From IMG/VR virus record IMGVR_UViG_3300050026_000188: a stretch of DNA of 47,912 nucleotides, one strand, 5' to 3'. This DNA is from a virus. The notes under the pieces were generated by a model. The model ran no database searches. It saw only the letters and a list, made by a program, of their open reading frames with translations, and was not told the DNA's origin. The translations under genes were made by a program, and so were the position numbers. Shown in pieces: positions 1 through 28,106 of this stretch. Position 1 is the first letter of the stretch. Every line of letters begins with the position of its first letter.

Positions 1-77
1 GAGATCGCCCCCGCCGTGTTGAGGATGCTTGTCCCATCCGGCTTCACGCCTCCGAGCACGGTCGAAGTCGCCGTGGG
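1..77. repeat. Terminal direct repeat: bases 1..77 are identical to 47836..47912
   Basis: Exact 77-nt identity by direct comparison of the first and last lines of the window; a large minus-strand ORF reads through the junction in frame. Confidence 0.9.
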
Positions 78-907
78 TAGAACATAGGCAGATGGCGTCC
101 CACTCACCTGCGAGTAGGGCAGACTTAGGCTGGGCAGTGACGTAATCGCATTGGTGATATACCCGGAGGGATTCGCGGCGCTGTATGGGGTGAATCCCAA
201 AGCCGTCGTCACCATCGAGCCGGTGATGCCGCTGATGTACCCACTCGGGTTGGTTGCGTTGTATGGAGTGAATCCGAGTGCATTCTGCTTCCCATTGAAT
301 GCGGCCCAGTCAATGTGCGATAGGTAGCCGTCCACCGATGAAGTAGCCTGAGCCATCGCGCAATCTACGCTCGATCCGCTCGTCGTGCAATCCACCGGGG
401 CCGTGCCCGTGACCGCACTCAGCCCTCCGCCAGTTGAAGCCCCCCGCGCAACCATCGCGTTAGGGCTGGCAGTGAGCGTAAGGCTTACGCTGGTTGCCGT
501 GAACGTTCCCGAAGTCACGAATTTGATATGAGTCAGGCCGGCGAGATTGACTTGATAAAGCCCGTTCGCGGTCGCTGTCACGGTTGCGGTTGGGGTTGCG
601 CCTGGCGTTACCGCAGTGATTGGAATCGAGTAGTAAGTCGCTCCGTTGTCGCTACTCCCCAACACGGCGAAGGTTGCAGTTGTCAGGGAAGTTCCGGTTA
701 CAGCGATTGTCCCCGACGCGAAAGAGCTTCCGACGGTTGAGGGCACTACCAGGCCGTTGAGTTGAAATGGGGTACTGGTTTGCCCCGTGGCGGTAAAGAT
801 CTTCGCAGGGAAAACCGAATTGCTGTAAGGGCTCGCCAACTGAGCGCGAGCGGCGGGAGCCCCTAAACCAAAGCACAACGCGAGTGCGAGTAAAATCTTA
901 GTTCTCA
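1..907 (-). CDS. N-terminal part of a giant secreted tail-fibre-like protein (continues at 47835..44232 across the junction; about 1500 aa in total)
   Basis: ATG at 907..905 preceded by GGAGGG; N-terminus MRTKILLALALCFGLGAPAARA-QL looks like a Sec signal peptide; Gly/Thr/Ser/Ala-rich; repeated ALGFTPY..NPSGYI and ..VLGGVKPDG.. fibre-like motifs; frame continues into ORF 44232..47894. Confidence 0.6.
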
Positions 908-961
908 TTATTTGAAGCCCTCCGTTATTATTTATACGTTGCGGACTGATATTATGCATCC

Positions 962-1639
962 ATGAAGTTTTACGTTTACGCCCACAAAACGATATCCCCG
1001 CGTAAGGCGGGCGAGGTCTTTTATATCGGCAAAGGGCAGCGACGGCGCGCTTGGCTCGCAACTGGGCGCAATCCTCACTGGCAACGGGTTGCATCCAAGT
1101 ATGGATTCTCCGTCATTATTCTCGCGGACGGACTAAGCGAAAAGGCGGCTTTTGACCTAGAGAAGTCGATCATTCTCATTTGCGGCCGGGCGGCTCTCTG
1201 TAACCTTACAGACGGCGGCGAAGGCATCTCGGGTGCTTCGGAAGAGATTTGCCGGAAGATCAGCGAGCGTCACAAGGGTAAACCCAAGAGTGCTCAGCAT
1301 AAACAGAAAATAGCGGCATCGCATAAGGGGATTCGGCCATCAGAAGAAACCCGAGTCAGACTCAGAGCACGCCGACCGTCCGAAGAAACTCGCGCAAAAC
1401 TCAGTGCTTCTCAAAAGGCTCGCAATATAACCGCTCCCTCAGATTTTGCCGAGCGTAGCGCTTCCATGCGAAAGGCCGTTACTTGCTCCAACGGCATGAT
1501 CTTTGATTCGGTTAGTGCTGCTGCCACATGGGCTCGGAAGAACGGCTTCCCGAAAGCGGCTACAAGCAATATCAGCAACGTCTGTAATGGCCATCGCCCA
1601 TCAGCTTGCGGTGGCCTGACCTGGGCATTCGTCAAATGA
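962..1639 (+). CDS. GIY-YIG homing endonuclease with NUMOD3-like repeats
   Basis: N-terminal FYVYAH...GEVFYIGKG...R motif (GIY-YIG); twice-repeated SEETR..L (NUMOD3-like); free-standing immediately upstream of the large terminase. Confidence 0.8.
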   Translation: MKFYVYAHKTISPRKAGEVFYIGKGQRRRAWLATGRNPHWQRVASKYGFSVIILADGLSEKAAFDLEKSIILICGRAALCNLTDGGEGISGASEEICRKISERHKGKPKSAQHKQKIAASHKGIRPSEETRVRLRARRPSEETRAKLSASQKARNITAPSDFAERSASMRKAVTCSNGMIFDSVSAAATWARKNGFPKAATSNISNVCNGHRPSACGGLTWAFVK

Positions 1640-3099
1640 TTTCCATTACTGAGGACGAAACCGAGGAAGCCGCTGCCGAAGAGATATTCGCCCGTCGCAA
1701 CGGGCAGAAGACGATGTACGGGTATATCAAATACACGATGCTTGGTTATAAAACATCGACATTTGCCGAACGAGTATGCGCGGCGATTGACAAATTTATA
1801 ACTGATGTGCAAGCGGGCAAGCGTCCGGTTTTGATTCTTCAAGCTCCCCCGCAGAGCGGAAAATCTGAAATAGCTTCTCGCAAACTACCGGCTTATTTAC
1901 TTGGCAGGTTCCCCGATTGGCGCATTGCGGCTTGCAGTTATGGTGATGAATTGGCTGGAGCAATGGCGCAAGATGTTCGCCGAAATATCAACTCGCTTGA
2001 GCACCAAAAGCTATTTCCAGCCCCGGAAGAAAAGAAGAAATACGACGTAAACCGAATGGGAGATTTTACTGCGCCAGGTGGCACTGGCAGTTATTTGGGG
2101 GTGGGTGTCGGGGGCGGTCTTACTGGCAAGAGCGCGACCATTGGAATCATCGATGATCCAATCAAAAACGAAAAGGAAGCGCTCAGCGTTACAACTAAAG
2201 AGGGGCTATGGTCTTGGTATCAAGCTACTTTTACAACGCGGCTTTCCCAAAATTCAGGTCAAGTCATAATGGCTACATCTTGGGCGGTCGATGATCTGGT
2301 TGGGCGCATCATCGATCACTTCGCCGGCGATCCCCGTCTTACTCATTTGCGATTCCCGGCGATCAACCTGCCCGATGAAGTCGGATATAACCCCAAATTA
2401 CCAGAAGGTGCTCTCGTTCCCGAGCTTCACAGTCTCGAAAAACTATATGAGACTAAAGCTCTTTTTTCCGATTATTGGTTTTCATGCTTGTATCAGCAGA
2501 GCCCGAAGGCTCTGGGCGGCAACGTCTTCAAGGATTTTTGTATTCAGTATTACAACCCGAACGATCTGCCGAAGAAATTTGACAAGGTAATAGCGTCTTG
2601 GGATTGCACTTTCAAAGACACGGACGGGACCGATTTCGTAGTCGGGCAGGTATGGGGCAAAAAGGGAGCCAACAGTTATCTACTTGATCAGATCCGCGCT
2701 CGCATGAGTTTCAGCGTTACATGCAAAGCCATCGTTACCCAGAAACTAAAATGGCCGCAGATTCGCGAGGTGCTGATTGAGGACAAGGCTAACGGACCGG
2801 CAGTTATTGACGTGCTCAAGGCTCAGGTGCCTGGCATCATCCCGATTGAGCCCGACGGCTCGAAGCTCGCCCGCGCCCATGCGGTTACATGCTACTGGGA
2901 AGCGCTCAACGTATGGCTTCCTAATGAAGCTCTTTGCCCGTGGATAAAGGCTTACGTCTCCGAGATGACTACCTTCCCGGCGGCCGCCCATGATGATCAA
3001 GTGGATAGTACGACTCAGGCGCTCCGCCGGCTCTATCCCTTATTCGGAAGGCTCAAAATAAATCGGAATGCCATAAACAAGGCACTTGGGATAAGGTAA
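1636..3099 (+). CDS. terL: Terminase large subunit
   Basis: Walker A-like PQSGKSE, Walker B-like IGIIDDP, C-terminal nuclease motifs (ASWDCTF, AAAHDDQVDS); the ATG at 1636 overlaps the endonuclease stop (ATGA); the ORF track starts at 1606 with an alternative codon. Confidence 0.85.
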   Translation: MISITEDETEEAAAEEIFARRNGQKTMYGYIKYTMLGYKTSTFAERVCAAIDKFITDVQAGKRPVLILQAPPQSGKSEIASRKLPAYLLGRFPDWRIAACSYGDELAGAMAQDVRRNINSLEHQKLFPAPEEKKKYDVNRMGDFTAPGGTGSYLGVGVGGGLTGKSATIGIIDDPIKNEKEALSVTTKEGLWSWYQATFTTRLSQNSGQVIMATSWAVDDLVGRIIDHFAGDPRLTHLRFPAINLPDEVGYNPKLPEGALVPELHSLEKLYETKALFSDYWFSCLYQQSPKALGGNVFKDFCIQYYNPNDLPKKFDKVIASWDCTFKDTDGTDFVVGQVWGKKGANSYLLDQIRARMSFSVTCKAIVTQKLKWPQIREVLIEDKANGPAVIDVLKAQVPGIIPIEPDGSKLARAHAVTCYWEALNVWLPNEALCPWIKAYVSEMTTFPAAAHDDQVDSTTQALRRLYPLFGRLKINRNAINKALGIR

Positions 3100-3105
3100 T
3101 AATCT

Positions 3106-4614
3106 ATGACCTGGCTCCGTAATTTGTGGGATCGCTTCCGTAAGACACCCGCGCCGTTCTCAGTGACACCCGCCCCCGAACGTGGGGAGGGCTTAGCGCG
3201 GGCTCTCGCGAAGGCGAAAGAGACGGGCGGCCGCAAGAGCTATTGCTATCCCGTCAAGGCTCCCGATCTGATGCCCGGAGTTGTGCCCGCCACTGCGAAA
3301 TCTGGGATCGCGATGGATGCGAATTTCTCCGCGATGAATGGGGTACCAGGCGCGGCCGGCTACGCTTATGGTGATTCCGCCGGCTTCCCGGGATACCCCT
3401 ATCTCGCTATGCTCGCGACTCGCGCCGAATATCGGGCGTTTGCGTCCACCCTGGCGACAGAACGCACGCGGGAATGGATCGTGCTCAATAGCACGGATAC
3501 CGCCGGCGATGAGACGAAGACGAGGATCACCGAACTTACTCAAGCGCTCAAAGATATCAAACTGCAAAAGGTTATTCGGCGAGCGGCAGAGCAGGATTGT
3601 CTTTACGGCCGCGGGCAGATCTTTATCAAGATCAAGGGCGCTGATGACTCCCTTCCGCTCATCCTCAGCAATAAGACAATCAAAAAGGGCAGTTTCGACA
3701 GCGTTACGAATGTTGAGCCCATTTGGACAACGCCCAGCGCTTACAACGCTCTTGATCCAACGGCCGCGGATTTCTACAAGCCTTCTAAGTGGTGGATGCT
3801 CGGGAAGGAAGTTCATGCGAGCCGGATGATGACGATGATCACGCGGGAACTTCCGGACATACTCAAGCCCGCCTTCAATTTCAGCGGCATGAGCTTGAGC
3901 CAACTTGCAGAGCCCTATGTTGACAATTGGCTTCGCACGCGCCAGAGCGTCTCAGATCTGATCAATAACTTCTCAATCACTGCTCTCAAAACCAGCATGG
4001 GGCAAGTATTACAGGGCGGAGATGGACCGGACGCCGATGGTACCGATCTCTTTGAACGCGCCGATTTATTTACGGCCGGCCGAAGCAACAAAGGGCTCAT
4101 GCTGCTCGATAAGGACAGCGAAGAGCTAGTGCAAGTAAACACGCCCCTGGGCGGCCTGCATGAGCTTCAAGCGCAAGCTCAAGAGCAGATGTGTTCCGTT
4201 AGCCGTACCCCGGCGATCATCCTTACTGGCATCTCTCCGAGCGGGCTAAACGCTTCGAGTGAGGGCGAGATCAGCACATTTGAGGATTGGAACGCCGCTC
4301 TGCAAGAAGCCTATGATCGCGAGCCGATAGAAACAGTGCTCAAGGTTCTACAACTTTCGATGTATGGCGAGATTGATCCCGATATTACTTTTGCGTTTGT
4401 CCCGTTGCGGCAGATGACAAAGAAAGAACTCGCGGAGATCCGGACGGCCGACAGCACCACGGCCGGAACTTACATTGACCGCGGCGTGATCTCTCCGGAG
4501 GAAGAGCGCGAACGCCTGGCGCGAGATCCGGATAGCGGGTACCAGGGGCTAGATATGAGCCTTGAAATTGCAACTCCAAATGAGGGGAATACAGACAATG
4601 AAGACGATGAATAA
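3106..4614 (+). CDS. Portal protein (DUF1073-like)
   Basis: About 500 aa ORF directly after the large terminase; by-eye resemblance to DUF1073-type portals; acidic C-terminus. Confidence 0.65.
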   Translation: MTWLRNLWDRFRKTPAPFSVTPAPERGEGLARALAKAKETGGRKSYCYPVKAPDLMPGVVPATAKSGIAMDANFSAMNGVPGAAGYAYGDSAGFPGYPYLAMLATRAEYRAFASTLATERTREWIVLNSTDTAGDETKTRITELTQALKDIKLQKVIRRAAEQDCLYGRGQIFIKIKGADDSLPLILSNKTIKKGSFDSVTNVEPIWTTPSAYNALDPTAADFYKPSKWWMLGKEVHASRMMTMITRELPDILKPAFNFSGMSLSQLAEPYVDNWLRTRQSVSDLINNFSITALKTSMGQVLQGGDGPDADGTDLFERADLFTAGRSNKGLMLLDKDSEELVQVNTPLGGLHELQAQAQEQMCSVSRTPAIILTGISPSGLNASSEGEISTFEDWNAALQEAYDREPIETVLKVLQLSMYGEIDPDITFAFVPLRQMTKKELAEIRTADSTTAGTYIDRGVISPEEERERLARDPDSGYQGLDMSLEIATPNEGNTDNEDDE

Positions 4615-5128
4615 GAAGGTTTTGTTGGGGCTCATGCTGCTAGTTTGCGTCACGGTTGCTTTTGCCGCGGTCAACGTAAAAGGTTTGATCGTTGACGCGC
4701 TTACGGGCTACACAGTGGCCGGCGCTGCCCCGAATAACTACACACTATGCGGTAACGGGACCGTGGGCACTTACCAGGCGTCATGCGGCGCGGCGGCTCC
4801 TGTTCGCACTTGCAACGCTAACGGCTGCTATATCCGATACTCAGACGGTACAATACACGCCTGGGGAACGATCACCACGGCGTCATCAGGCGGAACGCTT
4901 TCGAGCGGTACGATCACTTTCCCCACGGCATTTACAACTGTCGTGCAAAGTCTGTTGGTTTCTGGACAGAGTCAACCTGACAGCACAGACGACGCATACG
5001 TTACTTACACGAAGAGCGGAACGACTAGCGGCGCTACCGTAGTAATACGGTGCTCCATCAACATTAGCGGATCTGGTTGCTCTTCACTAAACGCCGTTCC
5101 CGTTGGCTGGATAGCCGATGGATACTAA
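4598..5128 (+). CDS. Small secreted protein with an H-type-lectin-like C-terminal domain
   Basis: ATG at 4598 with GAGGGG upstream; MKTMNKKVLLGLMLLVCVTVAFA-AV signal-peptide-like N-terminus; C-terminal ITFPTAFTTVVQSLLV...VTYTKSGTTSGATVV...VGWIADGY pattern. Confidence 0.45.
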   Translation: MKTMNKKVLLGLMLLVCVTVAFAAVNVKGLIVDALTGYTVAGAAPNNYTLCGNGTVGTYQASCGAAAPVRTCNANGCYIRYSDGTIHAWGTITTASSGGTLSSGTITFPTAFTTVVQSLLVSGQSQPDSTDDAYVTYTKSGTTSGATVVIRCSINISGSGCSSLNAVPVGWIADGY

Positions 5129-5915
5129 ACCCACAGTTGTGCGTGCGGTACACGCCAACCGCGGCATCGCCGCTCTCTACCATCGCCGCATGATGGCTTT
5201 GATAGATGAGATGGACGCGAGCATTCTGCATTGGATCTCTGCGACGTACCGCCAGGCTCCCCCGCTACTCGCCCAGGACGCGAGCCCCGACTGGGAATAC
5301 AGCTTCGACGATCTGGGGAAGCGTTGGATCAAGCGCTTCGAGGATGCCGCGCCGAAGATCGCCGAAGCCTACCTCAAAGGGCAATTCAAGGCTACAGATT
5401 CCGCGATGCGCCAGGCTCTAAAAGATGCCGGTTGGACGGTCAAATTTGAGATGACTCCCGTGATGCGGGAAGCGTATGAGGCTTCGCTCGCTGAGAATAT
5501 CGGCTTGATCCGTTCGATCCCTCAACAGTATTTGCAGCAAGTTGAGGGAATCGCGATGCGGTCCTATACCGCCGGCCGCGACTTACAGCAGATGGTGACT
5601 GCCCTCAAGCGGCTTTACCCGAGAGCCGCTAACCGCGCCGTACTCATCTCGCTTGATCAGAGCAACAAAGCCAACGCAGTAGTTACCCAGGCGCGCCAGA
5701 CTGAGTTAGGGATCGTGGAATCCGTATGGATGCACTCGCACGCCGGCAAGACGCCGCGCCCTACTCACGTTGCCATGAATGGCAAGACGTACAAGGTAGC
5801 TCAGGGAATGTGGGATAGCGACGAAAAGAAGTGGATCTTCCCTGGAGAGTTGATCAACTGCCGTTGTACCGGCCGCTCAGTGATCCCCGCTTTCGCTGCC
5901 AGATCCGCTAAGTAA
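5118..5915 (+). CDS. Head morphogenesis protein (Mu F / SPP1 gp7 family)
   Basis: C-terminal GELINCRCTG motif typical of the family; position after the portal. Confidence 0.75.
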   Translation: MDTKPTVVRAVHANRGIAALYHRRMMALIDEMDASILHWISATYRQAPPLLAQDASPDWEYSFDDLGKRWIKRFEDAAPKIAEAYLKGQFKATDSAMRQALKDAGWTVKFEMTPVMREAYEASLAENIGLIRSIPQQYLQQVEGIAMRSYTAGRDLQQMVTALKRLYPRAANRAVLISLDQSNKANAVVTQARQTELGIVESVWMHSHAGKTPRPTHVAMNGKTYKVAQGMWDSDEKKWIFPGELINCRCTGRSVIPAFAARSAK

Positions 5916-5987
5916 CAAAGCCGTCAATAATATACGATAAAAATAACATTTGCAACTTGAAAATAATTGTGCAATGCTTTCCGTAAT

Positions 5988-7214
5988 ATGCCTCAGGATC
6001 TCAATCCCGCCGTTTCCGTAGCGCTTGACGCTTCGGCGCGTTCGTATGACGCAAACGGCCGGCTGCATATCAGCAAAACTCACATTACGAAGGCGACGGT
6101 AAACCCCTATTTCGGTATGGAGATCCCGAATAGCGCGGCTCTGGGGCTTGATCCTCAGAGGATTTATTATATGCTCCGTTCGCCCGAAGAGCTTGCGAAA
6201 GCCGCTCCCACCTTCGAGCGTATTCAAATTCTGATCAAGCATAAGCCGATTCTCAATACCGATCCCCCGAAGATGATCACGGTAGGGACAACGGGATCGG
6301 ATATCAGTTTTGAGTCCCCCTATCTCGACGCCGATGTATGTCTCTGGGATGAGACGGCTATCGCCGGTATCGAGACGAAGACTCTGCACGAATGGAGTTG
6401 CGCGTATCGCTACGTTGCCGTGATGACTGCCGGCATCTTTGAGGGACAGCGGTACGACGGAATTATGACCGATATTCAAGCCGATCATCTTGCAATCGTT
6501 GAGGATGGCCGTGCGGGAAGTGACGTAATAGCTGCAGATCAGGAGATCAAAATAATGCCGAAACCTACCAAACTGGGCACTGCCCTTATCGCGACTCTCG
6601 GAGGTATGTCCGCAAAGTTGGCGCTCGATTCCGCGCTCCCCACTTTGGTAGGGCAGGCCGTCAAGAAAACCTTCAACAAGGCCGACGTAAGCGCGAAGCT
6701 GATCGCGATGGACGCCGATCTCAAGCCCGCGGCGATCACCGCCGTTTTCGATTCGTTGCTGGCATTGGACGAAGAGAAAAAGGAAGTTGCCGAAGACGCC
6801 GACGAACATCCGAAGGATTGCGACTGTAAGGAATGTAAGAAAGTCGCCCAGGATGCCGCCGACGAAGAGGAAGAGAAGAAAAAGAAGATCGCTGAGGACG
6901 CCGAAGAGAAGGCAGAGAAGAAACTCGAAGGCGCAATGGACAGCTTCCGCAAGGATCTCCGCGCCGCGAACGAAGCCCGCATTGCCGTTCGGCCGGTTGT
7001 CGGCGATGTGATCGCCCAGGACTCAGCCGAAGAGATTTACGGCTTTGCTCTGGATCATTTGAAGGTTGACCGCGCCGGCGTTACTGGCGTGCCGGCTCTC
7101 AAGTCGCTCTTCACTCTGGCCCAGTCGCGCTCTTCCGCCCCCGTCGCTATCGCTCAGGACTCCGCCGGCGCTGCCGCCAGGTTCCCGAACGCGAGCCGTT
7201 TCCGTCAGGGATAA
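5988..7214 (+). CDS. Scaffold / prohead-associated protein (DUF2213-like)
   Basis: Position between head-morphogenesis and capsid genes; charged Lys/Glu/Asp-rich coiled segment (EEKKEVAEDADE...EEEEKKKKIAEDAEEKAEKK); likely ATG at 5988 (ORF track starts at 5967). Confidence 0.45.
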   Translation: MPQDLNPAVSVALDASARSYDANGRLHISKTHITKATVNPYFGMEIPNSAALGLDPQRIYYMLRSPEELAKAAPTFERIQILIKHKPILNTDPPKMITVGTTGSDISFESPYLDADVCLWDETAIAGIETKTLHEWSCAYRYVAVMTAGIFEGQRYDGIMTDIQADHLAIVEDGRAGSDVIAADQEIKIMPKPTKLGTALIATLGGMSAKLALDSALPTLVGQAVKKTFNKADVSAKLIAMDADLKPAAITAVFDSLLALDEEKKEVAEDADEHPKDCDCKECKKVAQDAADEEEEKKKKIAEDAEEKAEKKLEGAMDSFRKDLRAANEARIAVRPVVGDVIAQDSAEEIYGFALDHLKVDRAGVTGVPALKSLFTLAQSRSSAPVAIAQDSAGAAARFPNASRFRQG

Positions 7215-7273
7215 ACCGCAGAACGCCGCGCCTTTTTGTAACCGAAGCAAAGCAGTAAACCGGAGGACCAAAA

Positions 7274-8179
7274 ATGTTTCAGAAGTCCGTCAATCTTTAC
7301 AACCCGCTCGCAGTTGAGGGAGATTTCGCCGACGCGAATCCTCGCGCAACTGTACCCGCTGGGGAAGGCGGCCTTGTGGCCGGTCCCCTTGGAGTGACAG
7401 TCGGCCGCTTTGCCTGGGTTTCGGCAGACGGTAAGACAGTCACGAATTACGGAGAAGGCGCGGCCGCGCCGGATGGTTTCGTTCACCGCCAGGAAGGTGC
7501 AGCGCTGATTACTGCATACTTGGGGGAAGCGTCCAACCTGATCCTGGCTGGCTTCCCCGTCACTCTCCATAACGCCGGCAGTTTCTTCGCGAAGGCGAAC
7601 GGGCAGGCTTCCACTCTCCGCGGCTCGGTTTACGCGAGCTACGCAGACGGCTCCGTTTACATGGGCGCGGCTCCCGCCGGCTCGACTGCAACCGGCGCAA
7701 TCGGCGCAACGTTCACGGCGACGGGCACGGGTACCAGCCTGGCGGTCACTGCAGTAACCGGGCTGATCTCCATCGGAGACGTGATCTTGGGTACTGGCGT
7801 ACCTGCCGGGACCGCAATTCTCGCCCAGGTGAGCGGTCCAACCGGCGGCGCGGGAACGTATACCACCAGCGTTGCGACAACGGCAGCGGGCGTAACCGTA
7901 ACCAGCTTCGGCAACGTGCTCAACGTCTCCGCAGTTGCAACCGGCGTGCTCGCAGTTGGCGACGGCATTACCGGGACCGACGTACCTGCAGGCGCAACCA
8001 TCGCATCGCAGGTTAGCGGCGCGGCGGGCGGCGTGGGCGTGTATACGCTCAACATCCCGGCAACTGCTTACGCGGCTTCTACGGCGCTCACGGTTGCCGG
8101 CGGCGTCCTCACGAAGTTCGTAGCCAAGTCCGCTGTCAACGTCGGCGAGCTTGTCAAAATCTCAACGTGGGGGAACTAA
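7274..8179 (+). CDS. Head-associated structural protein with two internal ~45-aa Gly/Thr-rich repeats
   Basis: GDVILGTGVPAGTAILAQVSGPTGGAGTYT and GDGITGTDVPAGATIASQVSGAAGGVGVYT repeats; lies between scaffold and capsid genes. Confidence 0.35.
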   Translation: MFQKSVNLYNPLAVEGDFADANPRATVPAGEGGLVAGPLGVTVGRFAWVSADGKTVTNYGEGAAAPDGFVHRQEGAALITAYLGEASNLILAGFPVTLHNAGSFFAKANGQASTLRGSVYASYADGSVYMGAAPAGSTATGAIGATFTATGTGTSLAVTAVTGLISIGDVILGTGVPAGTAILAQVSGPTGGAGTYTTSVATTAAGVTVTSFGNVLNVSAVATGVLAVGDGITGTDVPAGATIASQVSGAAGGVGVYTLNIPATAYAASTALTVAGGVLTKFVAKSAVNVGELVKISTWGN

Positions 8180-8186
8180 GCCAGTC

Positions 8187-9218
8187 ATGGACCCAATACT
8201 CGTAGCGCTCGCAATGGACGCCGGCATTCACTTCATGGGCACGGAAGCCATGTTGCAACTGCCGAACGTGGCTCACAGCATCCGTGTCGCAATGGACGCT
8301 CAGCCGGCACTAATCACAACCAGCAACGCCGGTATCCCCGCGTTTCTTTCGACGTACATCGATCCCAAGTTGATTGAGATCCTGGTTGCGCCGATGAAGG
8401 CCGCGGAGATCGTCGGAGAGGAAGTCAAAAAGGGCGATTGGACAACGGATACAGCGATGTTCCCCGTTGTGGAATCAACCGGCGAGACTTCGAGCTACGG
8501 CGATTACAGCAATAACGGCGTGGCCGGCGCGAATACCAACTTTCCCCAGCGTCAGAGCTATCACTACCAGGTGATTACTCAGTGGGGCGAGAAGGAACTC
8601 GCGAAGGCGGCTCTTGCGAAAATCGACTGGGCGAATCGCGTCAACATCGCGAGCGTTCTCACCCTCAACAAATTCCAGAACAAGACGTACTTCTACGGCG
8701 TGGCCGGCCTGCAGAATTACGGCTTGCTCAACGATCCCAACCTTTACGCCCCCATCGCCCCCACCAACGAGGGCGGAAACATTACCTGGGCGAACAAGGA
8801 TGCTCTCGGGATCTACGCCGATATCCTCGCGCTCTTCACTCAGTTGCAGGCGCAGACCGGAAATACATCTCTGGTTGAGATGGATGCAAAGATGACGCTC
8901 GCGCTGTCTTCTGGCGCGATCGTCAACCTCGGTAAAGTCACTCAGTTCAACGTCAACGTCAAGACGACGATCAAGGATAACTTCCCCAACCTGCGAATCA
9001 TGACGGCTCCGGAATACTCGACAGCGGCGGGCAACCTTGTGCAACTCATCGTTGACGAAGTTGAAGGGCAGCGTACCGTTGAAGTCGCTTTCACCGAGAA
9101 ACTGCGGGCTCACCCGATTGTTATCGAGATGAGCGCCTTCAAGCAGAAGAAATCGCAGGGAACTTTCGGAAGCATTGTTTATCGCCCAATGTTTATCGCG
9201 GCGATGCTCGGCGTATAG
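8187..9218 (+). CDS. Major capsid protein (DUF2184-like)
   Basis: About 345 aa ORF in the capsid position; GGGGGA before ATG at 8187; family assignment is by gene order and general resemblance only. Confidence 0.55.
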   Translation: MDPILVALAMDAGIHFMGTEAMLQLPNVAHSIRVAMDAQPALITTSNAGIPAFLSTYIDPKLIEILVAPMKAAEIVGEEVKKGDWTTDTAMFPVVESTGETSSYGDYSNNGVAGANTNFPQRQSYHYQVITQWGEKELAKAALAKIDWANRVNIASVLTLNKFQNKTYFYGVAGLQNYGLLNDPNLYAPIAPTNEGGNITWANKDALGIYADILALFTQLQAQTGNTSLVEMDAKMTLALSSGAIVNLGKVTQFNVNVKTTIKDNFPNLRIMTAPEYSTAAGNLVQLIVDEVEGQRTVEVAFTEKLRAHPIVIEMSAFKQKKSQGTFGSIVYRPMFIAAMLGV

Positions 9219-9301
9219 CTCGGTAACTGTTGACGGTGTACAGTAATAAGAGGGCTGGGGGAATATCCTCAGCCCTCAAATTACATAACGAAGGGAATTT
9301 T

Positions 9302-9640
9302 ATGGCAAAGATTGTTATTGGCTGCAGGCTTCCAAACGGGTTGGTTTTGACTCACCCGATCAGCGGAGAGAGCGTGACTCTCGCGGGCTTGCATAGCTCG
9401 AAGATCATCGGCTCAACCCACGTATCAACCGAAGTCGATGCCGATTTCTGGGAAGCGTGGAAAGCAAAGTACAAGGATTTTACGCCGCTCAAGACTGGCG
9501 CGATCTTTGAGGCTCGCAACGAGACGGAAGCAATCTCGAAGGCGAAAGAACTCCGCAAGGAAAAAACAGGCTTCGAGCCGATGGCGACAGACGGCAAAGA
9601 TCCCAGGGCGAGCGGCGTAAAGAAAGCCGACGCAAAGTAA
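9302..9640 (+). CDS. Hypothetical head-module protein
   Basis: ORF with ATG at 9302 (MAKIVIG...); no recognised motif. Confidence 0.3.
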   Translation: MAKIVIGCRLPNGLVLTHPISGESVTLAGLHSSKIIGSTHVSTEVDADFWEAWKAKYKDFTPLKTGAIFEARNETEAISKAKELRKEKTGFEPMATDGKDPRASGVKKADAK

Positions 9641-9746
9641 CAATGAGCGAGAAGCGGCCTACGAAACGGACTCTTCCCCCGCAAGTCGGAGGAGTGCGAA
9701 TCAAGGCTAAACCTAACTTGGATTATTACGACGGGAGAAAATAACA

Positions 9747-9980
9747 ATGAGCGTCCGCGGGAAGTTTATGGTAAGTTCCGTCACGAACCTGAGTGCGACA
9801 AGCACTTACGTCAATGTGAAGTTGAGAGCGGTATACAGCAATAGCCCCGAAGACAATAGCTATTCGGCGGCAACACCGAGCGGAAGTATTGAGATGACCA
9901 TCACCAACCCGGCGGCGGTTGAGCAGCTACCAATCGGCGCACAATTTTACGTTGACTTCACCGCCGTAACCGAAGGGTAA
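9747..9980 (+). CDS. Small hypothetical structural protein
   Basis: 77-aa ORF with GGGAGA upstream; position in the head-tail joining block. Confidence 0.3.
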   Translation: MSVRGKFMVSSVTNLSATSTYVNVKLRAVYSNSPEDNSYSAATPSGSIEMTITNPAAVEQLPIGAQFYVDFTAVTEG

Positions 9981-9982
9981 CG

Positions 9983-10411
9983 ATGGCCGTTGCAGTCTTC
10001 AACTTGGCGAACTTCCAAGCTCGATATCCGCAGTTCAATGCCGTGAGTCCAACCAGGCTTGCGGCATTGTTCGTGGAAGCGGGCTTGTATCTATCCAACA
10101 CGGACTGCAGCCCCATTCAGGACTTGGGGAGACGCGGGATGCTGCTCAACATGCTTGTGGCGCACATCTCTTCTCTCTCAGGCGATCTCAGCGCAGACGG
10201 ACAGGCTCAGCCAGTGGGGAGAGTAAGCCAGGCGGCAGAGGGGACCGTATCCGCGAGCTTTGAGGGCGTACCGCCCACGCCGGGCACGGGCGCATGGTTC
10301 CAACAAACCCAATACGGCGCGGCCTTCTGGCAAGCTACGGCGAGCCTACGGGGTATGCGTTATCGTTCCCGCCCAACCGATCCCAACCAGGGGCGGCGCT
10401 GGGGGTATTAG
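9983..10411 (+). CDS. Head-tail adaptor-like protein (DUF4054-like)
   Basis: Size and position; N-terminal MAVAVFNLANFQARYPQF resembles DUF4054 proteins. Confidence 0.35.
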   Translation: MAVAVFNLANFQARYPQFNAVSPTRLAALFVEAGLYLSNTDCSPIQDLGRRGMLLNMLVAHISSLSGDLSADGQAQPVGRVSQAAEGTVSASFEGVPPTPGTGAWFQQTQYGAAFWQATASLRGMRYRSRPTDPNQGRRWGY

Positions 10412-10948
10412 ATGCAACTCCCAATATCCCAAAACGTAGAGAGGAAGATCAAGGCCATCGCCGTGAAAATGAGCGCATCCCTTGAGGTTGGATTCCTTGA
10501 GGGGGCAATTTATTCGGACGGTACGCCCGTCGCATCCGTCGCCTTCTGGAATGAGTTCGGGCACGGGGGGAACTTTCCCGCACCTCCACGTCCGTTTTTT
10601 CGACCGATGATCGCAAAAGAGTCCCCCTCGTGGCCTGCAAAGATGGCAGCTTTGGTAAAGGCTACCGATGGGGACGGGCCAAAAATAATGGTCATGATGG
10701 GCGAGGATATTCAGGGAGCTTTGATCGACAGCATTAGAAGTGCGGACGTTGCCCCATTATCGGATACCACTCTTGCTCTCCGCGCTAAGTTTGGAAATAG
10801 CCCTGAAAAAATTACACTCAAGGACGTATTGGCTGCACAGCGAGCGGTTGCGGACGGCACCGCTACATTGGCGAGCGGGACTCAGGCAAAGCCGCTCGAT
10901 TGGACAGGCCATATGCTCAACAGCACGGGATATAGGGTGATCAAATGA
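10412..10948 (+). CDS. Head-tail joining protein, HK97 gp10-like
   Basis: PLDWTGHMLNSTGY motif near the C-terminus resembles the HK97 gp10 family signature; gene order. Confidence 0.5.
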   Translation: MQLPISQNVERKIKAIAVKMSASLEVGFLEGAIYSDGTPVASVAFWNEFGHGGNFPAPPRPFFRPMIAKESPSWPAKMAALVKATDGDGPKIMVMMGEDIQGALIDSIRSADVAPLSDTTLALRAKFGNSPEKITLKDVLAAQRAVADGTATLASGTQAKPLDWTGHMLNSTGYRVIK

Positions 10949-11172
10949 CAATCAAGCGCTTCGATTTGCTCAAAGTGGATTGCGGGTATCAGGGCAGCGA
11001 TCACGTTATGGAGGAAACTGACGACGGCGAATACGTGAGCTACGAACTTTACTCAGACGCAGTCTTCGCATTGACGGCGCTGGTTGAGGAATTCAATTGT
11101 CTCCCTGGCGTTCAAAAGACTTCGGTGCAAGAGTGCCTTGAGGCCGCTCGCGACTTTCGTGAGGCTCTCTAA
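10945..11172 (+). CDS. Hypothetical small protein
   Basis: 75-aa ORF, start overlaps the upstream stop. Confidence 0.3.
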   Translation: MTIKRFDLLKVDCGYQGSDHVMEETDDGEYVSYELYSDAVFALTALVEEFNCLPGVQKTSVQECLEAARDFREAL

Positions 11173-11564
11173 TGGATTTGAGATCAGTGGCAAATTCCGC
11201 CAGCAATGCGATCAACCCCAACATGATCGTGAGCGTCAAGCGATCAACGGGCTATACCGTGGGAGCGGGGCTCAAGCAAGTTCCCGCTTACGCCGCGCCC
11301 GTCTCGGGACCGGCTCAGCTTCAAGCGCTTGACGGCTCCGAGCTTCGGCAGATCGAAGGGCTCAACCTGCAGGGAGTTATCCGCGGGATCTATCTCCGCG
11401 GCAACCTGGCGGGAGTGATACGCCCGAACGGTACCGGCGGAGATCTCGTAATTATCGCGCCGCCCGCGCCGGCCGCCTTCGTTGGTACCTGGCTTTGCGT
11501 GAAGATTTTAGAGACGTGGCCGCTCTGGGCAAAAGCTGTCGTGGTATTGCAAGAGGGATCATAA
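11172..11564 (+). CDS. Hypothetical tail-completion-region protein
   Basis: 130-aa ORF in the pre-sheath position. Confidence 0.3.
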   Translation: MDLRSVANSASNAINPNMIVSVKRSTGYTVGAGLKQVPAYAAPVSGPAQLQALDGSELRQIEGLNLQGVIRGIYLRGNLAGVIRPNGTGGDLVIIAPPAPAAFVGTWLCVKILETWPLWAKAVVVLQEGS

Positions 11565-12079
11565 TGCCCGCGCCTATACCCTTTCTGGCTTCGATCAGCA
11601 TTGACGCCGTAATCGAAGCCCTGGGCGCATTCCTGCAGCCATTCGTAGGAGCCGCACAGATCATCCGCGCCCAGGTGAATCGCGTTGCTCCGCCGGCCGC
11701 GCCTTACGTGGAACTCACCGAAATTCTGCAGGTACCGCTAGAGACTCCGATTGACGTAGACAACGGAGCCAACGCGCAAACGGACATTACCGGACCAAAG
11801 CGGATCGATATTCAAATTGACTTCCGCGGTCCCGCTTCGGGCGACTGGTGTACAGCCGTAACAACTATTTACCGGAGTCCTTACGCGCCGGCTCAATTTC
11901 CCGATGGCATAAAACCGTTGTATTGTTCGGACGGTCATCAGATGCCGCTTACCACGGGTGAGCAACAATACGAAACCCGTTGGACGCTTACGGCGAGCTT
12001 GCAGTACAATCCGACTGTAAGTATTCCGCAACAGTCCGCTAATACTTTGGCGGTAAATATTATGGAGGCTTCGCAATAA
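11564..12079 (+). CDS. Hypothetical structural protein (possible tail terminator)
   Basis: ATG at 11564 (MPAPIPFLASI...); immediately upstream of the sheath gene. Confidence 0.3.
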   Translation: MPAPIPFLASISIDAVIEALGAFLQPFVGAAQIIRAQVNRVAPPAAPYVELTEILQVPLETPIDVDNGANAQTDITGPKRIDIQIDFRGPASGDWCTAVTTIYRSPYAPAQFPDGIKPLYCSDGHQMPLTTGEQQYETRWTLTASLQYNPTVSIPQQSANTLAVNIMEASQ

Positions 12080-13602
12080 TGACTATTCCCGCGTCTCGAA
12101 TTGCAAGAGTAAACCCCGGCGTTGTGAATAGCGGCGGAACGTCGCTGGTGATGAATGGGCTCTTCCTCACTCAAAATACCGCGATGCCCACGGCTTCGGC
12201 TTTCAACTTCGCGAGCCCCACGGCGGTAGCAAATTTCTTCGGTCCAGCATCCGCCGAAGCCGCCCTAGCAAAGATCTATTTCGCCGGCTACAGCAATTCC
12301 ACGATCAAGCCTGGCGGGATGATCTTCGCTCCCTTCAATCTTGCCGCTCGCTCCGCCTTCCTGCAGAGCGGATCGCTCGCCGGATTGAGCCTGGCACAGC
12401 TTGAAGTGCTGAGCGGTACGCTCATCCTCACCGTTGCCGGCGTGGTAGAGACTTCGGCCGCGATTGATCTGTCTACCGCCGGCAGTTTCAGCGGCGCGGC
12501 TACTCTCATTCAAGCCGGTTTCACAACTCCCCCCTTCACCGTTGCGTGGAATCCCGTTACCAGTGCGTTCGTGATCACCACCACGGCAACCGGCGCAACG
12601 GAGACGATCACTTTCGCAAGCGGGACGCTCGCCGCCGGGCTCAATCTGACTCAGGCAACCGGCGCGATTCTCTCGCAGGGAGCCGCGCTCGATACGCCGG
12701 CTACCGCAATGGCGAACGCCGTGCGCGTGACGCAGAACTTCGCGAGCGTTGTAACGCTATGGGAGCCGACTCTCAGCGATAAGGAAGGCTTCGCGGCCTG
12801 GTTCAATGCGGCCAACCTTGAATATCTGTATCTCGGTTGGGATTCCGATCCGAACGCATCGGTACTCGGAAATACAACCTGTTTCGGCGCGGTAACGAAG
12901 GCCGCTCAGTGGAACGGCGTTGCGTGCATCTCCGGAGATCCGGCGTTAGCTCTCGCGAGCGGCACCACTCTCGCCGCGCTCGCGCTCAACGTCGCTACGT
13001 TCGTGGCCGGCGCGATTGCTTCGATCAACTCCGGCGCAACCAACGGGCGCGTTACTCTCGCCTTCCTTGCTCAGTCGGGGATGGCTCCCACGGTTGCAGA
13101 CGATCAGATCTCTCAGAATTTGCTCGCGAACGGTTACAGCTTCTACGGATCGTATGCGACGGCGAATGATGGCTTCGTTTTCTTCTACAACGGGCAGATG
13201 CCGGGCGAGTTCGGTTTCATCGATTCCTTCGTCAATCAGATTTACCTCAACGCACAATTTCAGTTGGCGATGCTCACGTTGCTTACCAACATCGGAGACT
13301 TCCCCTATACCCCATCCGGTTACGGGTTGCTTCGTTCGGCGCTGATGGACCCTATCAATGCGGCGCTTGCTTTCGGAACGATTCGCACGGGAGTTACTCT
13401 TTCGGCCGCGCAGATCTCCGAAGTCAACCTGGCCGCCGGCGTTGACGCTGCAAGCGTGATTCAGACGGCCGGCTACTACCTGCAGATCCTTGACCCTGGC
13501 GCTCAGGTTCGCGGGCTCCGCGGCAGCCCTATCGTCAACTTCTGGTATAGCGACGGCGGCGCGGTCCAATTTATCAACATGGCAAGCATTGACATTCTGT
13601 AA
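12079..13602 (+). CDS. Tail sheath protein (DUF3383-like)
   Basis: 507-aa ORF followed by a tube-like gene, then chaperone with frameshift and tape measure: the contractile-tail order. Confidence 0.65.
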   Translation: MTIPASRIARVNPGVVNSGGTSLVMNGLFLTQNTAMPTASAFNFASPTAVANFFGPASAEAALAKIYFAGYSNSTIKPGGMIFAPFNLAARSAFLQSGSLAGLSLAQLEVLSGTLILTVAGVVETSAAIDLSTAGSFSGAATLIQAGFTTPPFTVAWNPVTSAFVITTTATGATETITFASGTLAAGLNLTQATGAILSQGAALDTPATAMANAVRVTQNFASVVTLWEPTLSDKEGFAAWFNAANLEYLYLGWDSDPNASVLGNTTCFGAVTKAAQWNGVACISGDPALALASGTTLAALALNVATFVAGAIASINSGATNGRVTLAFLAQSGMAPTVADDQISQNLLANGYSFYGSYATANDGFVFFYNGQMPGEFGFIDSFVNQIYLNAQFQLAMLTLLTNIGDFPYTPSGYGLLRSALMDPINAALAFGTIRTGVTLSAAQISEVNLAAGVDAASVIQTAGYYLQILDPGAQVRGLRGSPIVNFWYSDGGAVQFINMASIDIL

Positions 13603-13911
13603 CTGAAAGAGGGCAGCATTTTGGACACTTCGATCAATGCGGCGCTCGCCTTCGGAGCCATTCGCACGGGCGTTACGCTTTCGGATGAGCAGATCTCCGA
13701 AGTCAACCAGGCCGCCGGCGTAGACGCTGCAAGCGTGATTCAGACGGCCGGCAACTACCTGCAGATCCTTGACCCTGGCGCTCAGGTTCGCGGGCTCCGC
13801 GGCAGCCCTATCGTCAACCTCTGGTACGCCGATGGTGACGCGGTCCAAACCATAACGATGGCAAGCATCGACATTCTGTAACTGAAAGAGGGCAGCATTT
13901 TGGACACTTCG
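13354..13911 (+). repeat. Tandem duplication, two 279-bp units (13354..13632 and 13633..13911), about 90% identical
   Basis: Base-by-base alignment: about 25 substitutions in the 249 coding nt, none in the 30 nt of stop + AGAGGG + TTG start region. Confidence 0.85.
13621..13881 (+). CDS. Free-standing paralogue of the sheath C-terminal domain (86 aa)
   Basis: Begins with the same AGAGGG-TTG-GAC-ACT-TCG as the tube gene, then encodes a diverged copy of the last 83 aa of the sheath. Confidence 0.4.
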   Translation: MDTSINAALAFGAIRTGVTLSDEQISEVNQAAGVDAASVIQTAGNYLQILDPGAQVRGLRGSPIVNLWYADGDAVQTITMASIDIL

Positions 13912-14334
13912 ATAACCTCAGCAAATTCCGTATTCACGATCTCTGTCCCCGGCTTGTTTCCTATCCCTCAGCAGTTGAAGGGATACTCCGCAGAGAAGGC
14001 TTGGAGCAGCGATAACCTCGACCTGGCAGAGACTCAGATGGGCGTAGATGGCCGCTTGACCGCCGGCTATACCCCGATGGCTGTAAAGCAGACGATCAGC
14101 CTGCAGGCCGACTCCCCGAGTAAGCAGATCTTCAAAACCATTCAGGCCGCGACTCGGGCGGCGCGGGATGTGTATTACATAAACGGCACGATTGATCTGC
14201 CGTCCACGGGTGAATCCTTCATCGGTACCCGCGGCGTGCTGCAGGCAGTGAAGCCCCTTCCGGACGCCGGCAAGGTTTTGCAGCCGATGGAGTTTGCAAT
14301 TGTGTGGGAGAGTCTGGTGCCCACTCTCCTGTAA
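13900..14334 (+). CDS. Tail tube protein (DUF3277-like)
   Basis: About 145 aa directly after the sheath; TTG start with AGAGGG upstream; YINGTIDLP region. Confidence 0.65.
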   Translation: MDTSITSANSVFTISVPGLFPIPQQLKGYSAEKAWSSDNLDLAETQMGVDGRLTAGYTPMAVKQTISLQADSPSKQIFKTIQAATRAARDVYYINGTIDLPSTGESFIGTRGVLQAVKPLPDAGKVLQPMEFAIVWESLVPTLL

Positions 14335-14370
14335 ATATGACAGAAGAAACGATGGGGGTTTAGGTAACTA

Positions 14371-15296: not shown

Positions 15297-15493
15297 TTGG
15301 GATACTGATCTCCCGGCGCATGGCGACGCTGCATGAGTTACAGACTTGCTATGGAGTGGAAGACGCTCACAACATGTTGGAAGTGGTGATTGTAGACGAT
15401 GCCAACAGACAGACATAAACTCGATCTCCAACGCGAACGATACGCCAATATGACTTCTGAAGAAAAGGTAGCTTGGCGTGAGAGGGCGTCCGG

Positions 15494-18350: not shown

Positions 18351-18488
18351 CGCCGGTTAGCAGCCCGATAATCCTAAATGCTATTCTGGTAAAGAAGAAC
18401 CGCTTAGAGCTTTCATCGGGCGCGGGCACGAGGGTAATCATGGTTTTTATTATGGAGAATTGTTGACTGTACTGTCAATAGCTAAATT

Positions 18489-20510: not shown

Positions 20511-20522
20511 GGGAGCAATCTA

Positions 20523-28104: not shown

Positions 28105-28106
28105 TT

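What the first reader, a model, noticed from the sequence alone, without database searches (positions are those of the whole stretch)
1..77. 77-bp exact terminal repeat indicates a complete circular or terminally redundant genome
Bases 1..77 and 47836..47912 are identical and a long ORF reads through the join in frame. That is the signature of a circularly assembled viral contig (or short terminal redundancy), giving a unique genome length of 47,835 bp and placing all genes in one closed map.
Basis: seen in the sequence. Interest (0 to 1): 0.45.

Follow-up and report, generated by a model that had tools for sequence, protein, structure and literature searches.

The report
Assembly overlap closing a phage genome
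The identical 77 bases at both ends are one single-copy stretch of a phage genome that the assembler wrote twice when it closed a circle, so the contig is a complete ~47.8-kb phage genome, which is an ordinary result.

Summary
Confirmed: window 1-77 equals 47836-47912 exactly, and this cannot be chance. Joining the ends gives 47,835 bp and restores a 1,503-aa minus-strand ORF; the 77-mer encodes residues 278-303.

The closure is independently supported:
- An IMG/VR contig from another sample (L001) runs unbroken through the join at 99.93% identity over 5,791 bp.
- Sister and family-level relatives keep the same gene order across it.
- Six unrelated proteins align collinearly over the junction residues.

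The window holds a full myovirus gene set, with no integrase, host genes or tRNA. The repeat is therefore an assembler k-mer overlap (77 is a standard k), not a physical terminal repeat.

One twist: the cut is not arbitrary. In L001 the same 77-mer is exactly the longest exact repeat between two modules of this gene. It was therefore probably a branch node created by co-occurring strain variants, one of which has a gene 1,011 bp longer. So 47,835 bp is one haplotype's length.

Virion DNA is probably linear, headful-packaged and circularly permuted. This is inferred only from 43% TerL identity to the pac-type Bcep781 group.

Side lead: the junction protein has a conserved signal peptide and an XepA/YomS-like N-terminal fold, so it may not be a tail fibre.

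The parts
1..77 (.). Left copy of the 77-bp terminal overlap. It is single-copy in the real genome and encodes residues 278-303 of the junction ORF on the minus strand.
   Evidence: Exact identity with 47836-47912 and only two copies in the window. It is internal and contiguous in independent contig L001.
47836..47912 (.). Right copy of the overlap. It is a redundant duplicate written by the assembler and should be trimmed to obtain the 47,835-bp unit genome.
   Evidence: CheckV reports that terminal repeats of 55, 77 and 99 bp match assembler k-mer lengths (PMC8116208).
1..908 (-). 5' part of the junction ORF (codons 1-303). It contains a signal-peptide-like N-terminus, a conserved ~155-aa XepA/YomS-like beta-sandwich domain, and widely shared fibre-type motifs at residues ~200-300.
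44232..47835 (-). 3' part of the junction ORF (codons 303-1503 plus the stop). It is a Thr/Ser/Gly/Ala-rich repetitive protein with no family match.
47761..47835 (-). Downstream half of the ~212-bp module (window 137..1 joined to 47835..47761) that is present three times in the sister-strain gene of L001.
   Evidence: Extra L001 copies at 6392-6603 and 7166-7353 are ~94% identical.
78..137 (-). Upstream part of the same repeated module, beyond the 77-mer.
45780..46400 (-). Haplotype-specific 621-bp segment of the junction ORF. In L001 it is replaced by 1,632 bp, an in-frame gain of 1,011 bp that includes module copies 2 and 3.
962..1639 (+). Homing endonuclease (NUMOD3 type) inserted between the junction gene and terL. 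It is absent from relatives L006, L007 and L013.
   Evidence: phrog_314 at 3.4e-20, NUMOD3, synteny comparison.
1606..3099 (+). Large terminase subunit. It was used to find relatives and to infer the packaging type.
   Evidence: phrog_38 at 2.6e-97. It is 43-53% identical to TerL of cultured 42-48 kb phages, including the Bcep781 group.
40436..41335 (+). Small-terminase-like gene. In about eleven relatives it directly abuts terL, so closing the circle restores the family order primase-terS-terL-portal.
   Evidence: phrog_51 at 8.1e-27, synteny.
3106..23148 (+). Structural module: portal, MuF-like head morphogenesis protein, protease/scaffold, major head protein, tail sheath, tape measure, baseplate and the recognisable tail fibre (22336-23148).
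25271..37401 (.). Replication module: family A DNA polymerase, ParB-like protein, gp2.5-like SSB, exonuclease, helicase, methyltransferase and primase.

Best explanation
The 77-bp terminal repeat is not a structure of the phage DNA. It is one single-copy stretch, lying inside a 1,503-codon gene, that a de Bruijn-graph assembler (most likely k = 77) printed at both ends of the contig because its path returned to the k-mer where it began. Trimming one copy gives a closed 47,835-bp map of a complete, previously unsequenced myovirus-type phage. The cut point was not arbitrary. This 77-mer is the only exact block of at least 77 nt shared between paralogous modules of the same gene in a co-circulating sister variant, so it was probably a branch node where the assembler stopped. 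The closure is nevertheless correct for this haplotype. Packaged DNA is probably linear, filled by a headful (pac) mechanism, circularly permuted and terminally redundant by far more than 77 bp, which is why it assembles as a circle. Shown: the repeat, the in-frame join, independent contiguity across the join, conserved synteny, and coincidence of the 77-mer with the sister-strain repeat. Inferred: the assembler's k, the presence of the variant in the source sample, and the packaging mode.
For: (1) The identity is exact, terminal and non-chance. (2) 77 is one of the over-represented terminal-repeat lengths that CheckV attributes to assembler k-mers on circular templates (PMC8116208, Extended Data Fig. 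3). The longest exact repeat inside the unique sequence is 65 nt, so a k of 77 would leave the rest of the genome unbranched. (3) L001, from a different sample (IMGVR_UViG_3300048814_000046), contains a 140-nt junction-spanning probe exactly. It aligns as one ungapped 5,791-bp block with 4 mismatches to window 4356..1 joined to 47835..46401. (4) L006 (84% TerL identity) carries g43031, g43830, the junction gene (minus strand), terL and portal contiguously. About eleven further relatives carry primase, a g39503-like gene, terS, terL and portal contiguously. (5) Six independent proteins align collinearly over residues 278-303, for example P0003 at 82% over residues 243-309 and P0001/P0004 at 61% over 245-344. 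(6) The packaging, head, tail and replication gene set is complete. No ORF of at least 250 aa is left without an assignment that could be an integrase, and there are no host-type genes, no tRNA and uniform GC. (7) The size matches cultured TerL relatives of 42-48 kb. (8) In L001 the 77-mer occurs twice. At the second site the exact match to the window is window 77..1 precisely, bounded by a SNP on each side, and the other shared blocks are 71, 62, 47, 23 and 20 nt. The chance that an arbitrary cut lands there is about 2e-5. (9) Bcep781-group terminases are pac-type and their genomes are highly circularly permuted (PMC2771037).
Against: No reads or assembly graph are available, so the assembler's k, the branch node and read pairs across the ends are unverified. 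The source contig was not found in any searchable collection. No endolysin was recognised, so a small missing segment cannot be excluded from gene content alone. Two ~42-45 kb relatives that I tested are not terminal-overlap contigs, so closed maps are not demonstrated across the family. The headful inference rests on only 43% TerL identity to a group whose permutation is itself described as 'maybe completely' permuted.
Confidence: 0.88

Rival explanations
1. False circularisation. The two ends lie in two different copies of the repeated module, and a segment between them (extra modules of the junction gene, or more) is missing, so the true genome is longer than 47,835 bp.
For: The 77-mer is a true internal repeat in the sister-strain gene. 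That gene is 1,011 bp longer. L002, from a third sample, ends inside the 77-mer at window 60. False circularisation through unresolved repeats is documented (PMC8172020; PMC7111523). No endolysin was found.
Against: In L001 the first copy of the 77-mer is flanked on both sides by exactly the window's two ends, as one 5,791-bp ungapped block at 99.93% identity. The window's downstream flank matches the flank of copy 1, not those of copies 2 or 3. L001's extra modules lie 1.4 kb further into the gene, at a place where the window is itself contiguous. The join is in frame and collinear with unrelated homologues.
Confidence: 0.07
2. A real physical short direct terminal repeat: linear virion DNA with fixed ends carrying 77 bp at both termini, as in T7-type packaging.
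For: Exact terminal direct repeats exist in some phage groups, and short-read assemblers cannot distinguish them from circles (PMC8116208; PMC7111523).
Against: The repeat lies inside codons 278-303 of a 1,503-codon ORF, so every virion would carry the gene split. Its length equals a standard assembler k. Its borders coincide with SNPs between gene modules in another strain, which is an assembly-graph property and not a terminase cut site. The nearest characterised terminases are pac-type.
Confidence: 0.02
3. An integrated prophage or chromosomal region in which two paralogous fibre genes share 77 bp, so the contig is an excerpt and not a closed genome.
For: Parts of the family are temperate. 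L085 has a tyrosine integrase next to the homologous gene, and L084 has host efflux and ABC-transporter genes directly beside it.
Against: The window has no integrase, no host-type genes and no tRNA. L001 extends beyond both window ends and finds the other end of the window, not host DNA. The join restores one gene whose N- and C-terminal parts are contiguous in L001.
Confidence: 0.01

Closest known systems
Terminal-overlap ('DTR') contigs from de Bruijn-graph assembly of circular or circularly permuted viral genomes, as catalogued by CheckV (PMC8116208)
   Same: An exact direct repeat at both contig ends, of a length equal to a standard k-mer (77), non-repetitive, on a contig with viral hallmark genes and a size typical of its relatives.
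   Different: CheckV describes the break as random. Here the break coincides exactly with a 77-nt exact repeat between gene modules of a sister strain, so it was most likely forced by strain heterogeneity in the graph.
Bcep781-group virulent myophages of Burkholderia and Xanthomonas (46-49 kb, pac-type, highly circularly permuted; PMC2771037)
   Same: Myovirus-type structural genes, a genome of ~48 kb, TerL 43% identical, gene clusters on alternating strands, no integrase, and no recognisable lysis cassette.
   Different: There is no nucleotide similarity to any phage in GenBank/INPHARED, no tRNA, and terS and terL are separated by an ~8-kb accessory island. The window phage is not a member of that genus. 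The closest TerL matches are Proteus phage RS51pmB and Stenotrophomonas phage B2 at only 51-53%.
False circularisation through unresolved repeats in metagenome-assembled genomes (PMC8172020; PMC7111523)
   Same: The contig ends sit in a sequence that is repeated in the population's assembly graph.
   Different: Independent contiguity in L001 and conserved synteny show that the adjacency is real, so this is a repeat-positioned but correct closure.
XepA (PBSX exported protein) and YomS of Bacillus prophages (PDB 6i56, 6i5o; PMC6834076)
   Different: Only 14-15% identity. Here the domain heads a 1,500-aa repetitive protein, the gene is next to terL and not in a lysis cassette, and the host is probably Gram-negative. 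Oligomeric state and activity are unknown.

Membership tests
Assembler terminal-overlap contig of a closed viral genome (CheckV 'DTR contig' criteria) | [quoted passage not shown] | tested here: met
   77 nt exact.
Assembler terminal-overlap contig of a closed viral genome (CheckV 'DTR contig' criteria) | Repeat length equal to a k-mer length used by common assemblers | tested here: met
   77 is listed with 55 and 99 in PMC8116208, Extended Data Fig. 3. The actual assembler is unknown.
Assembler terminal-overlap contig of a closed viral genome (CheckV 'DTR contig' criteria) | Repeat is not low-complexity, does not occur many times in the contig, and the contig has no duplicated region of 20% or more | tested here: met
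   Two copies only. The largest other repeat is a 279-bp tandem pair, and the longest internal exact repeat is 65 nt.
Assembler terminal-overlap contig of a closed viral genome (CheckV 'DTR contig' criteria) | Viral gene content, not a provirus with host flanks | tested here: met
   TerL, portal, MCP, sheath, tape measure, PolA and primase are present. No integrase or host genes were found.
Assembler terminal-overlap contig of a closed viral genome (CheckV 'DTR contig' criteria) | The adjacency of the two ends is real (normally shown by read pairs spanning the ends) | tested here: met
   Reads were not available. As a substitute, independent contig L001 is contiguous across the join, synteny is conserved in relatives, and homologues are collinear.
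Assembler terminal-overlap contig of a closed viral genome (CheckV 'DTR contig' criteria) | Break at a random position | tested here: not met
   The ends coincide with the only block of at least 77 nt shared by module copies in L001; the chance of this is about 2e-5. This does not negate membership, but it changes the cause of the cut.
Physical short direct terminal repeat (fixed-end, T7-type genomes) | Repeat marks the molecule's ends and does not interrupt an essential reading frame | tested here: not met
   The repeat lies in codons 278-303 of a 1,503-codon ORF.
Physical short direct terminal repeat (fixed-end, T7-type genomes) | Doubled read coverage and read-start peaks at the repeat borders | not testable with these tools
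   No reads.
Headful (pac) packaging with circular permutation | Large terminase related to experimentally pac-type terminases | tested here: inconclusive
   43% identity to Bcep781-group TerL, which is described as pac-related with permuted genomes (PMC2771037). No phylogeny was built.
Headful (pac) packaging with circular permutation | Closed contigs of relatives cut at different positions | tested here: inconclusive
   TerL lies at scattered offsets in 41-51 kb relatives, but the two tested (L065 and L014 contigs) have no terminal overlap, and some relatives are prophages.
Bcep781-like phage genus | Nucleotide or proteome-level similarity to Bcep781; one tRNA; 46-49 kb | tested here: not met
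   No megablast hit, no tRNA, and TerL only 43% identical. The size fits.
   No Pfam, PHROG or PDB sequence hit. A different gene, 22336-23148, matches tail-fibre PHROGs.
   About 27 proteins share residues 1-155 at 60-73% identity and nothing else. Short motifs are shared with proteins carrying PF13884, PF18454 or PF11133. There is modular variation between 99.9%-identical strains.
   A conserved signal-peptide-like N-terminus is present in all homologues, which argues against a cytoplasmic location. No dedicated predictor was run.
XepA/YomS prophage proteins | XepA-type beta-sandwich fold | tested here: met
   [not shown]
XepA/YomS prophage proteins | Detectable sequence homology; pentameric disc; location in a lysis cassette | tested here: not met
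   There is no sequence hit to PDB chains, and the gene neighbours are terL and small ORFs, not holin or lysin genes. Oligomeric state is not testable here.

The most novel reading that the evidence does not exclude
The gene that the contig ends fall in may not be a tail fibre. It could be a Sec-exported, XepA-like-headed giant modular protein (about 850-1,500 aa) encoded in a variable island beside terL across a whole group of uncultured phages and prophages. It gains and loses ~70-aa modules between otherwise 99.9%-identical strains. If so, it would be a hypervariable secreted or cell-envelope phage effector with a role in lysis, exclusion or adhesion, and its intragenic repeats are what break assemblies at this spot.
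Probability: 0.25. Interest if true: 0.5.

Novelty: already known. Interest (0 to 1): 0.15.

Why it matters
In practice it means the contig can be treated as a complete genome. One 77-bp copy should be trimmed, the split 1,503-aa gene should be annotated as one gene, and the length should be reported as 47,835 bp for this haplotype. The wider lesson is methodological. A k-mer-length terminal overlap is usually read as a random cut of a clean circle. Here the cut sits exactly on a repeat created by strain-level variation in a modular gene, which is the configuration that can also produce false circularisation. Independent contiguity and synteny were therefore needed before the closure could be trusted. 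The phage itself is a new species-level lineage with no nucleotide match among deposited phages, but it is of a familiar kind.

Tried and rejected
- **Megablast against deposited phages:** window 1-25000 gave no match.
- **Exact-protein look-up of TerL in public assemblies:** not on record.
- **Metagenome scan:** the bare 77-mer has 0 hits in JGI metagenome contigs. In IMG/VR only L001 carries it, twice. The source contig was never found.
- **Shared contig ends as physical termini:** several relatives' contigs end 2.6-3.9 kb upstream of terL. I rejected fixed termini because those ends fall in a tandem-repeat region downstream of primase, and L030, L065 and L068 read straight through it.
- **Closure of ~42-45 kb relatives:** the first 35 nt of the L065 and L014 contigs do not recur at their other ends, so closed maps across the family are not shown.
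- **GC and GC skew:** composition is uniform, with no clear origin or terminus signal and no foreign block.
- **Host assignment by genome scan:** only MAG-binned phage-like contigs (Proteobacteria and Rhodospirillaceae bins, 63-72% TerL identity) and distant Firmicutes, cyanobacterial or acidobacterial prophages were found. No firm host emerged.
- **Family searches for the 1,503-aa protein:** Pfam, PHROG and PDB sequence searches gave nothing.
- **First blastp without composition correction:** it gave long spurious low-identity alignments. I discarded it in favour of a corrected search filtered at 45% identity or more.
- **Endolysin search:** none was recognised, only holin-like small transmembrane proteins at 23157-23671.
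- **Errors:** one malformed DNA search and one off-by-one alignment (corrected).

Full report
**1. Observation**

Window 1-77 and 47836-47912 are identical over exactly 77 nt. This is the longest prefix that equals a suffix, and the 77-mer occurs nowhere else on either strand. For a sequence of this size and composition the expected number of exact 77-nt repeat pairs is about 1.6e-37. Removing one copy leaves 47,835 bp.

On the circularised sequence a minus-strand ORF starts at window 908, runs down to 1, continues from 47835, and stops at 44232. It is 1,503 codons long. Codon 303 is split by the join, and the 77-mer encodes residues 278-303.

**2. What the contig is**

Profile searches give a complete tailed-phage gene set:
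- Packaging and head: homing endonuclease (962-1639), TerL (1606-3099), portal, MuF-like head morphogenesis protein, protease/scaffold, minor and major head proteins.
- Tail: sheath (12079-13602), tape measure (15494-17275), Dit-like, hub, spike, baseplate-J and DUF2612 baseplate proteins, and a recognisable tail fibre (22336-23148).
- Replication: family A DNA polymerase, ParB-like protein, gp2.5-like SSB, exonuclease, helicase, nucleoside deoxyribosyltransferase-like protein, endonuclease, methyltransferase and primase (35038-37401).
- A small-terminase-like gene (40436-41335).

Every ORF of at least 250 aa has one of these assignments or is a shadow ORF. I found no integrase, repressor, host-type gene or tRNA, and GC is uniform at 0.52-0.59.

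There is no nucleotide match among 50,697 deposited phages. By TerL the closest cultured phages are Proteus RS51pmB and Stenotrophomonas B2 (51-53% identity), followed at 43-44% by the Bcep781 group and Xanthomonas and Ralstonia myophages. All of these have genomes of 42-48 kb.

**3. Is the join real?**

Four independent lines say yes.
- **Exact contiguity.** A 140-nt probe made of window 47806-47835 plus 1-110 is found exactly, in the interior of IMGVR_UViG_3300048814_000046 (L001, 8,617 bp, another sample). L001 aligns as a single ungapped 5,791-bp block with 4 mismatches (99.93%) to window 4356..1 joined to 47835..46401. In L001 the junction ORF is open from its ATG to the contig end, and its first 781 residues are identical to the window's.
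- **Sister-species gene order.** L006 (84% TerL identity) carries homologues of g43031, g43830, the junction gene (minus strand, N-terminus 75% identical), terL and portal contiguously. L007 and L013 show the same divergent junction-gene/terL pair.
- **Family-level gene order.** In about eleven more distant relatives whose contigs do not break here, the order is primase, a g39503-like gene, terS, terL, portal, with terS abutting terL. In the linear window, primase and terS are at the right end and terL and portal at the left end. Closing the circle restores the family order, with an ~8-kb accessory island inserted between terS and terL (small ORFs, the junction gene and the homing endonuclease).
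- **Collinear homologues.** Among database proteins, six align at 45% identity or more collinearly across residues 278-303. Examples are P0003 (82% over 243-309) and P0001/P0004 (61% over 245-344).

**4. Why 77, and why here?**

CheckV's survey of 751,567 terminal-repeat contigs found spikes at 55, 77 and 99 bp. It attributes them to assembler k-mer lengths left behind when a circular template is cut (PMC8116208, Extended Data Fig. 3). The longest exact repeat inside the unique 47,835 bp is 65 nt, so a k of 77 would leave the genome itself unbranched.

The cut, however, is not random. In L001 the junction gene is a longer variant. Window 46400-45780 (621 bp) is replaced by 1,632 bp, which is 1,011 bp more and in frame. 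The replacement contains two further ~94%-identical copies of the module that spans the window's join. The 77-mer itself occurs twice in L001, at 4280-4356 and 6452-6528.

At the second site the exact match to the window is precisely window 77..1, with a SNP immediately on each side. The other exact blocks shared between module copies are 71, 62, 47, 23 and 20 nt. So the window's terminal overlap is exactly the one block long enough to fuse two module copies into a single node of a k = 77 graph.

The chance that an arbitrary cut of the circle starts there is about 2e-5. The simplest account (inference) is that the source sample contained an L001-like variant alongside the assembled haplotype. 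The 77-mer was then a node with two ways in and two ways out, and the assembler's path began and ended there.

L002, from a third sample, matches window 10651..60 at 99.97% and ends inside the 77-mer. That is consistent with assembly trouble at this spot, although its end does not coincide with a block border. Relatives behave the same way at another repeat: six contigs begin in the tandem-repeat region downstream of primase, while others read through it.

**5. Does the repeat undermine the closure?**

This configuration is the one that can cause false circularisation (PMC8172020; PMC7111523), so I treated that as the main rival. It would require the window's two ends to belong to different module copies.

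They do not. In L001 both flanks of copy 1 are the window's two ends. The window's downstream flank (…QNASHINTGTIGVSYLPTGIPIG…) matches the flank of copy 1, not those of copies 2 and 3 (…SNASNLSSGTV…). L001's extra modules lie 1.4 kb further into the gene, at a point where the window is itself contiguous.

I therefore give about 0.07 to a missing segment. I note that 47,835 bp is the length of one haplotype, and an L001-type genome would be about 48,846 bp. The absence of a recognisable endolysin is weak evidence, since Bcep781-type phages scatter their lysis genes (PMC2771037).

**6. Physical form of the DNA**

A true 77-bp terminal repeat is very unlikely (about 0.02), for three reasons:
- It would split a 1,503-codon gene in every virion.
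- Its borders are defined by SNPs between gene modules of another strain.
- Its length is an assembler parameter.

The terminases nearest to this one with any characterisation, the Bcep781 group, are described as pac-related, and their genomes as 'highly, maybe completely, circularly permuted' (PMC2771037). I therefore infer, with moderate confidence of about 0.55, linear headful-packaged DNA that is circularly permuted and terminally redundant. A fixed-end genome with termini elsewhere cannot be excluded without reads. An attempt to show that ~42-45 kb relatives are closed contigs cut at different places failed for the two I could test.

**7. The prophage alternative**

The family includes temperate members. 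L085 (ENA, 48,914-bp contig) has a tyrosine integrase between terS and the homologue of the junction gene. L084 (JGI, 47,991-bp contig) has RND-efflux, ABC-transporter and other host genes directly beside that homologue. The window has none of this, and L001 shows phage sequence, not host, beyond both window ends. This rival is rejected for the window at about 0.01.

**8. The junction gene (side trail)**

It has no Pfam, PHROG or PDB sequence match.
- **Conservation.** About 27 database proteins of 830-1,430 aa share only its first ~155 residues (60-73% identity), always from their own residue 1. Residues ~200-300 carry short motifs shared with many large mosaic proteins, some with PF13884, PF18454 or PF11133. 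That pattern fits a receptor-binding protein.
- **Signal peptide.** All N-terminal homologues keep a basic n-region and a sequence-variable hydrophobic core, followed by a strongly conserved Q(L)ASPYSNSVF start. That is the signature of a functional signal peptide.

This is a lead, not a classification. Sequence identity is 14-15%, and the genomic context differs.

**9. Comparison with the known, and verdict**

The phage is a new lineage of a familiar type. What is slightly unusual is that the cut point was dictated by strain-level modular variation in one gene. That matters for how much trust such overlaps deserve, but it is not a new biological system. Interest 0.15; novelty: already known.

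Noticed in passing
[not shown]
   Followed up: partly
window 45780-46400 versus L001 5792-7423: Two strains that are 99.9% identical in their flanks differ by a cassette-like replacement plus a 361-aa in-frame insertion that duplicates ~70-aa modules of the junction gene. This is rapid modular variation of one gene within a phage population.
   Followed up: partly
L084 10001-13270 and L085 10001-12556, versus window, L006, L007 and L013: In L084 and L085 the homologue of the junction gene is co-directional with terL and immediately upstream of it. In the window lineage it is inverted and divergent from terL. L085 has an integrase beside it, and L084 is an integrated prophage whose boundary lies beside it. 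The gene therefore sits in an att-proximal variable island between terS and terL.
   Followed up: partly
window 38481-38524, 41657-41700, 42402-42445, 42829-42872 (weaker copy at 34112-34155): A repeated 44-nt motif reads on the minus strand as TTGACA-N17-TAATAT, a near-consensus sigma-70 promoter. It lies upstream of small minus-strand ORFs. This is probably a battery of strong early promoters, and it hints at a host with a sigma-70-type (proteobacterial-like) promoter consensus.
   Followed up: partly
window 13354-13632 and 13633-13911: A 279-bp tandem duplication (91% identical, 26 mismatches) includes the stop codon of the sheath gene. It creates a stand-alone 86-aa ORF (13621-13881) that copies the sheath C-terminus. 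It is either a real duplication or two strain alleles assembled in series. It also contains the longest internal exact repeat, 65 nt.
   Followed up: no
window 37861-38132, inside ORF 37825-38493 (minus strand): A 12-nt-period array encodes SAAxSAAx repeats in a protein matching Imm5_like (PF21805, 2.8e-9) and phrog_18326. Six relatives' contigs begin in the homologous repeat region, so it is a recurrent assembly break point in this family.
   Followed up: partly
window 962-1639: A homing endonuclease (phrog_314, NUMOD3 motif) lies between the junction gene and terL and overlaps the terL start by 34 nt. It is absent at this position in L006, L007 and L013, so it is a recent mobile insertion.
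   Followed up: partly
window 41462-42405: Several ~270-300-bp-spaced direct repeats occur here: 74 nt at 97% (42060 and 42332), 45 nt at 91% (41462 and 41710), and 24 nt (42015 and 42314). There is also a 28-nt inverted repeat (42104-42131 and 42285-42312). These indicate tandemly duplicated small early genes or regulatory units.
   Followed up: no
window 23157-25354: The presumed lysis region has two small transmembrane (holin-like) ORFs and a 233-aa protein with an N-terminal transmembrane segment, but no endolysin is recognisable by Pfam or PHROGs anywhere in the genome.
   Followed up: partly
L002 (IMGVR_UViG_3300037097_000002), end of contig = window position 60: A contig from a third sample, 99.97% identical to the window, terminates 17 nt inside the 77-mer. 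The cause is unknown, and the end does not coincide with the exact-block borders seen in L001.
   Followed up: no
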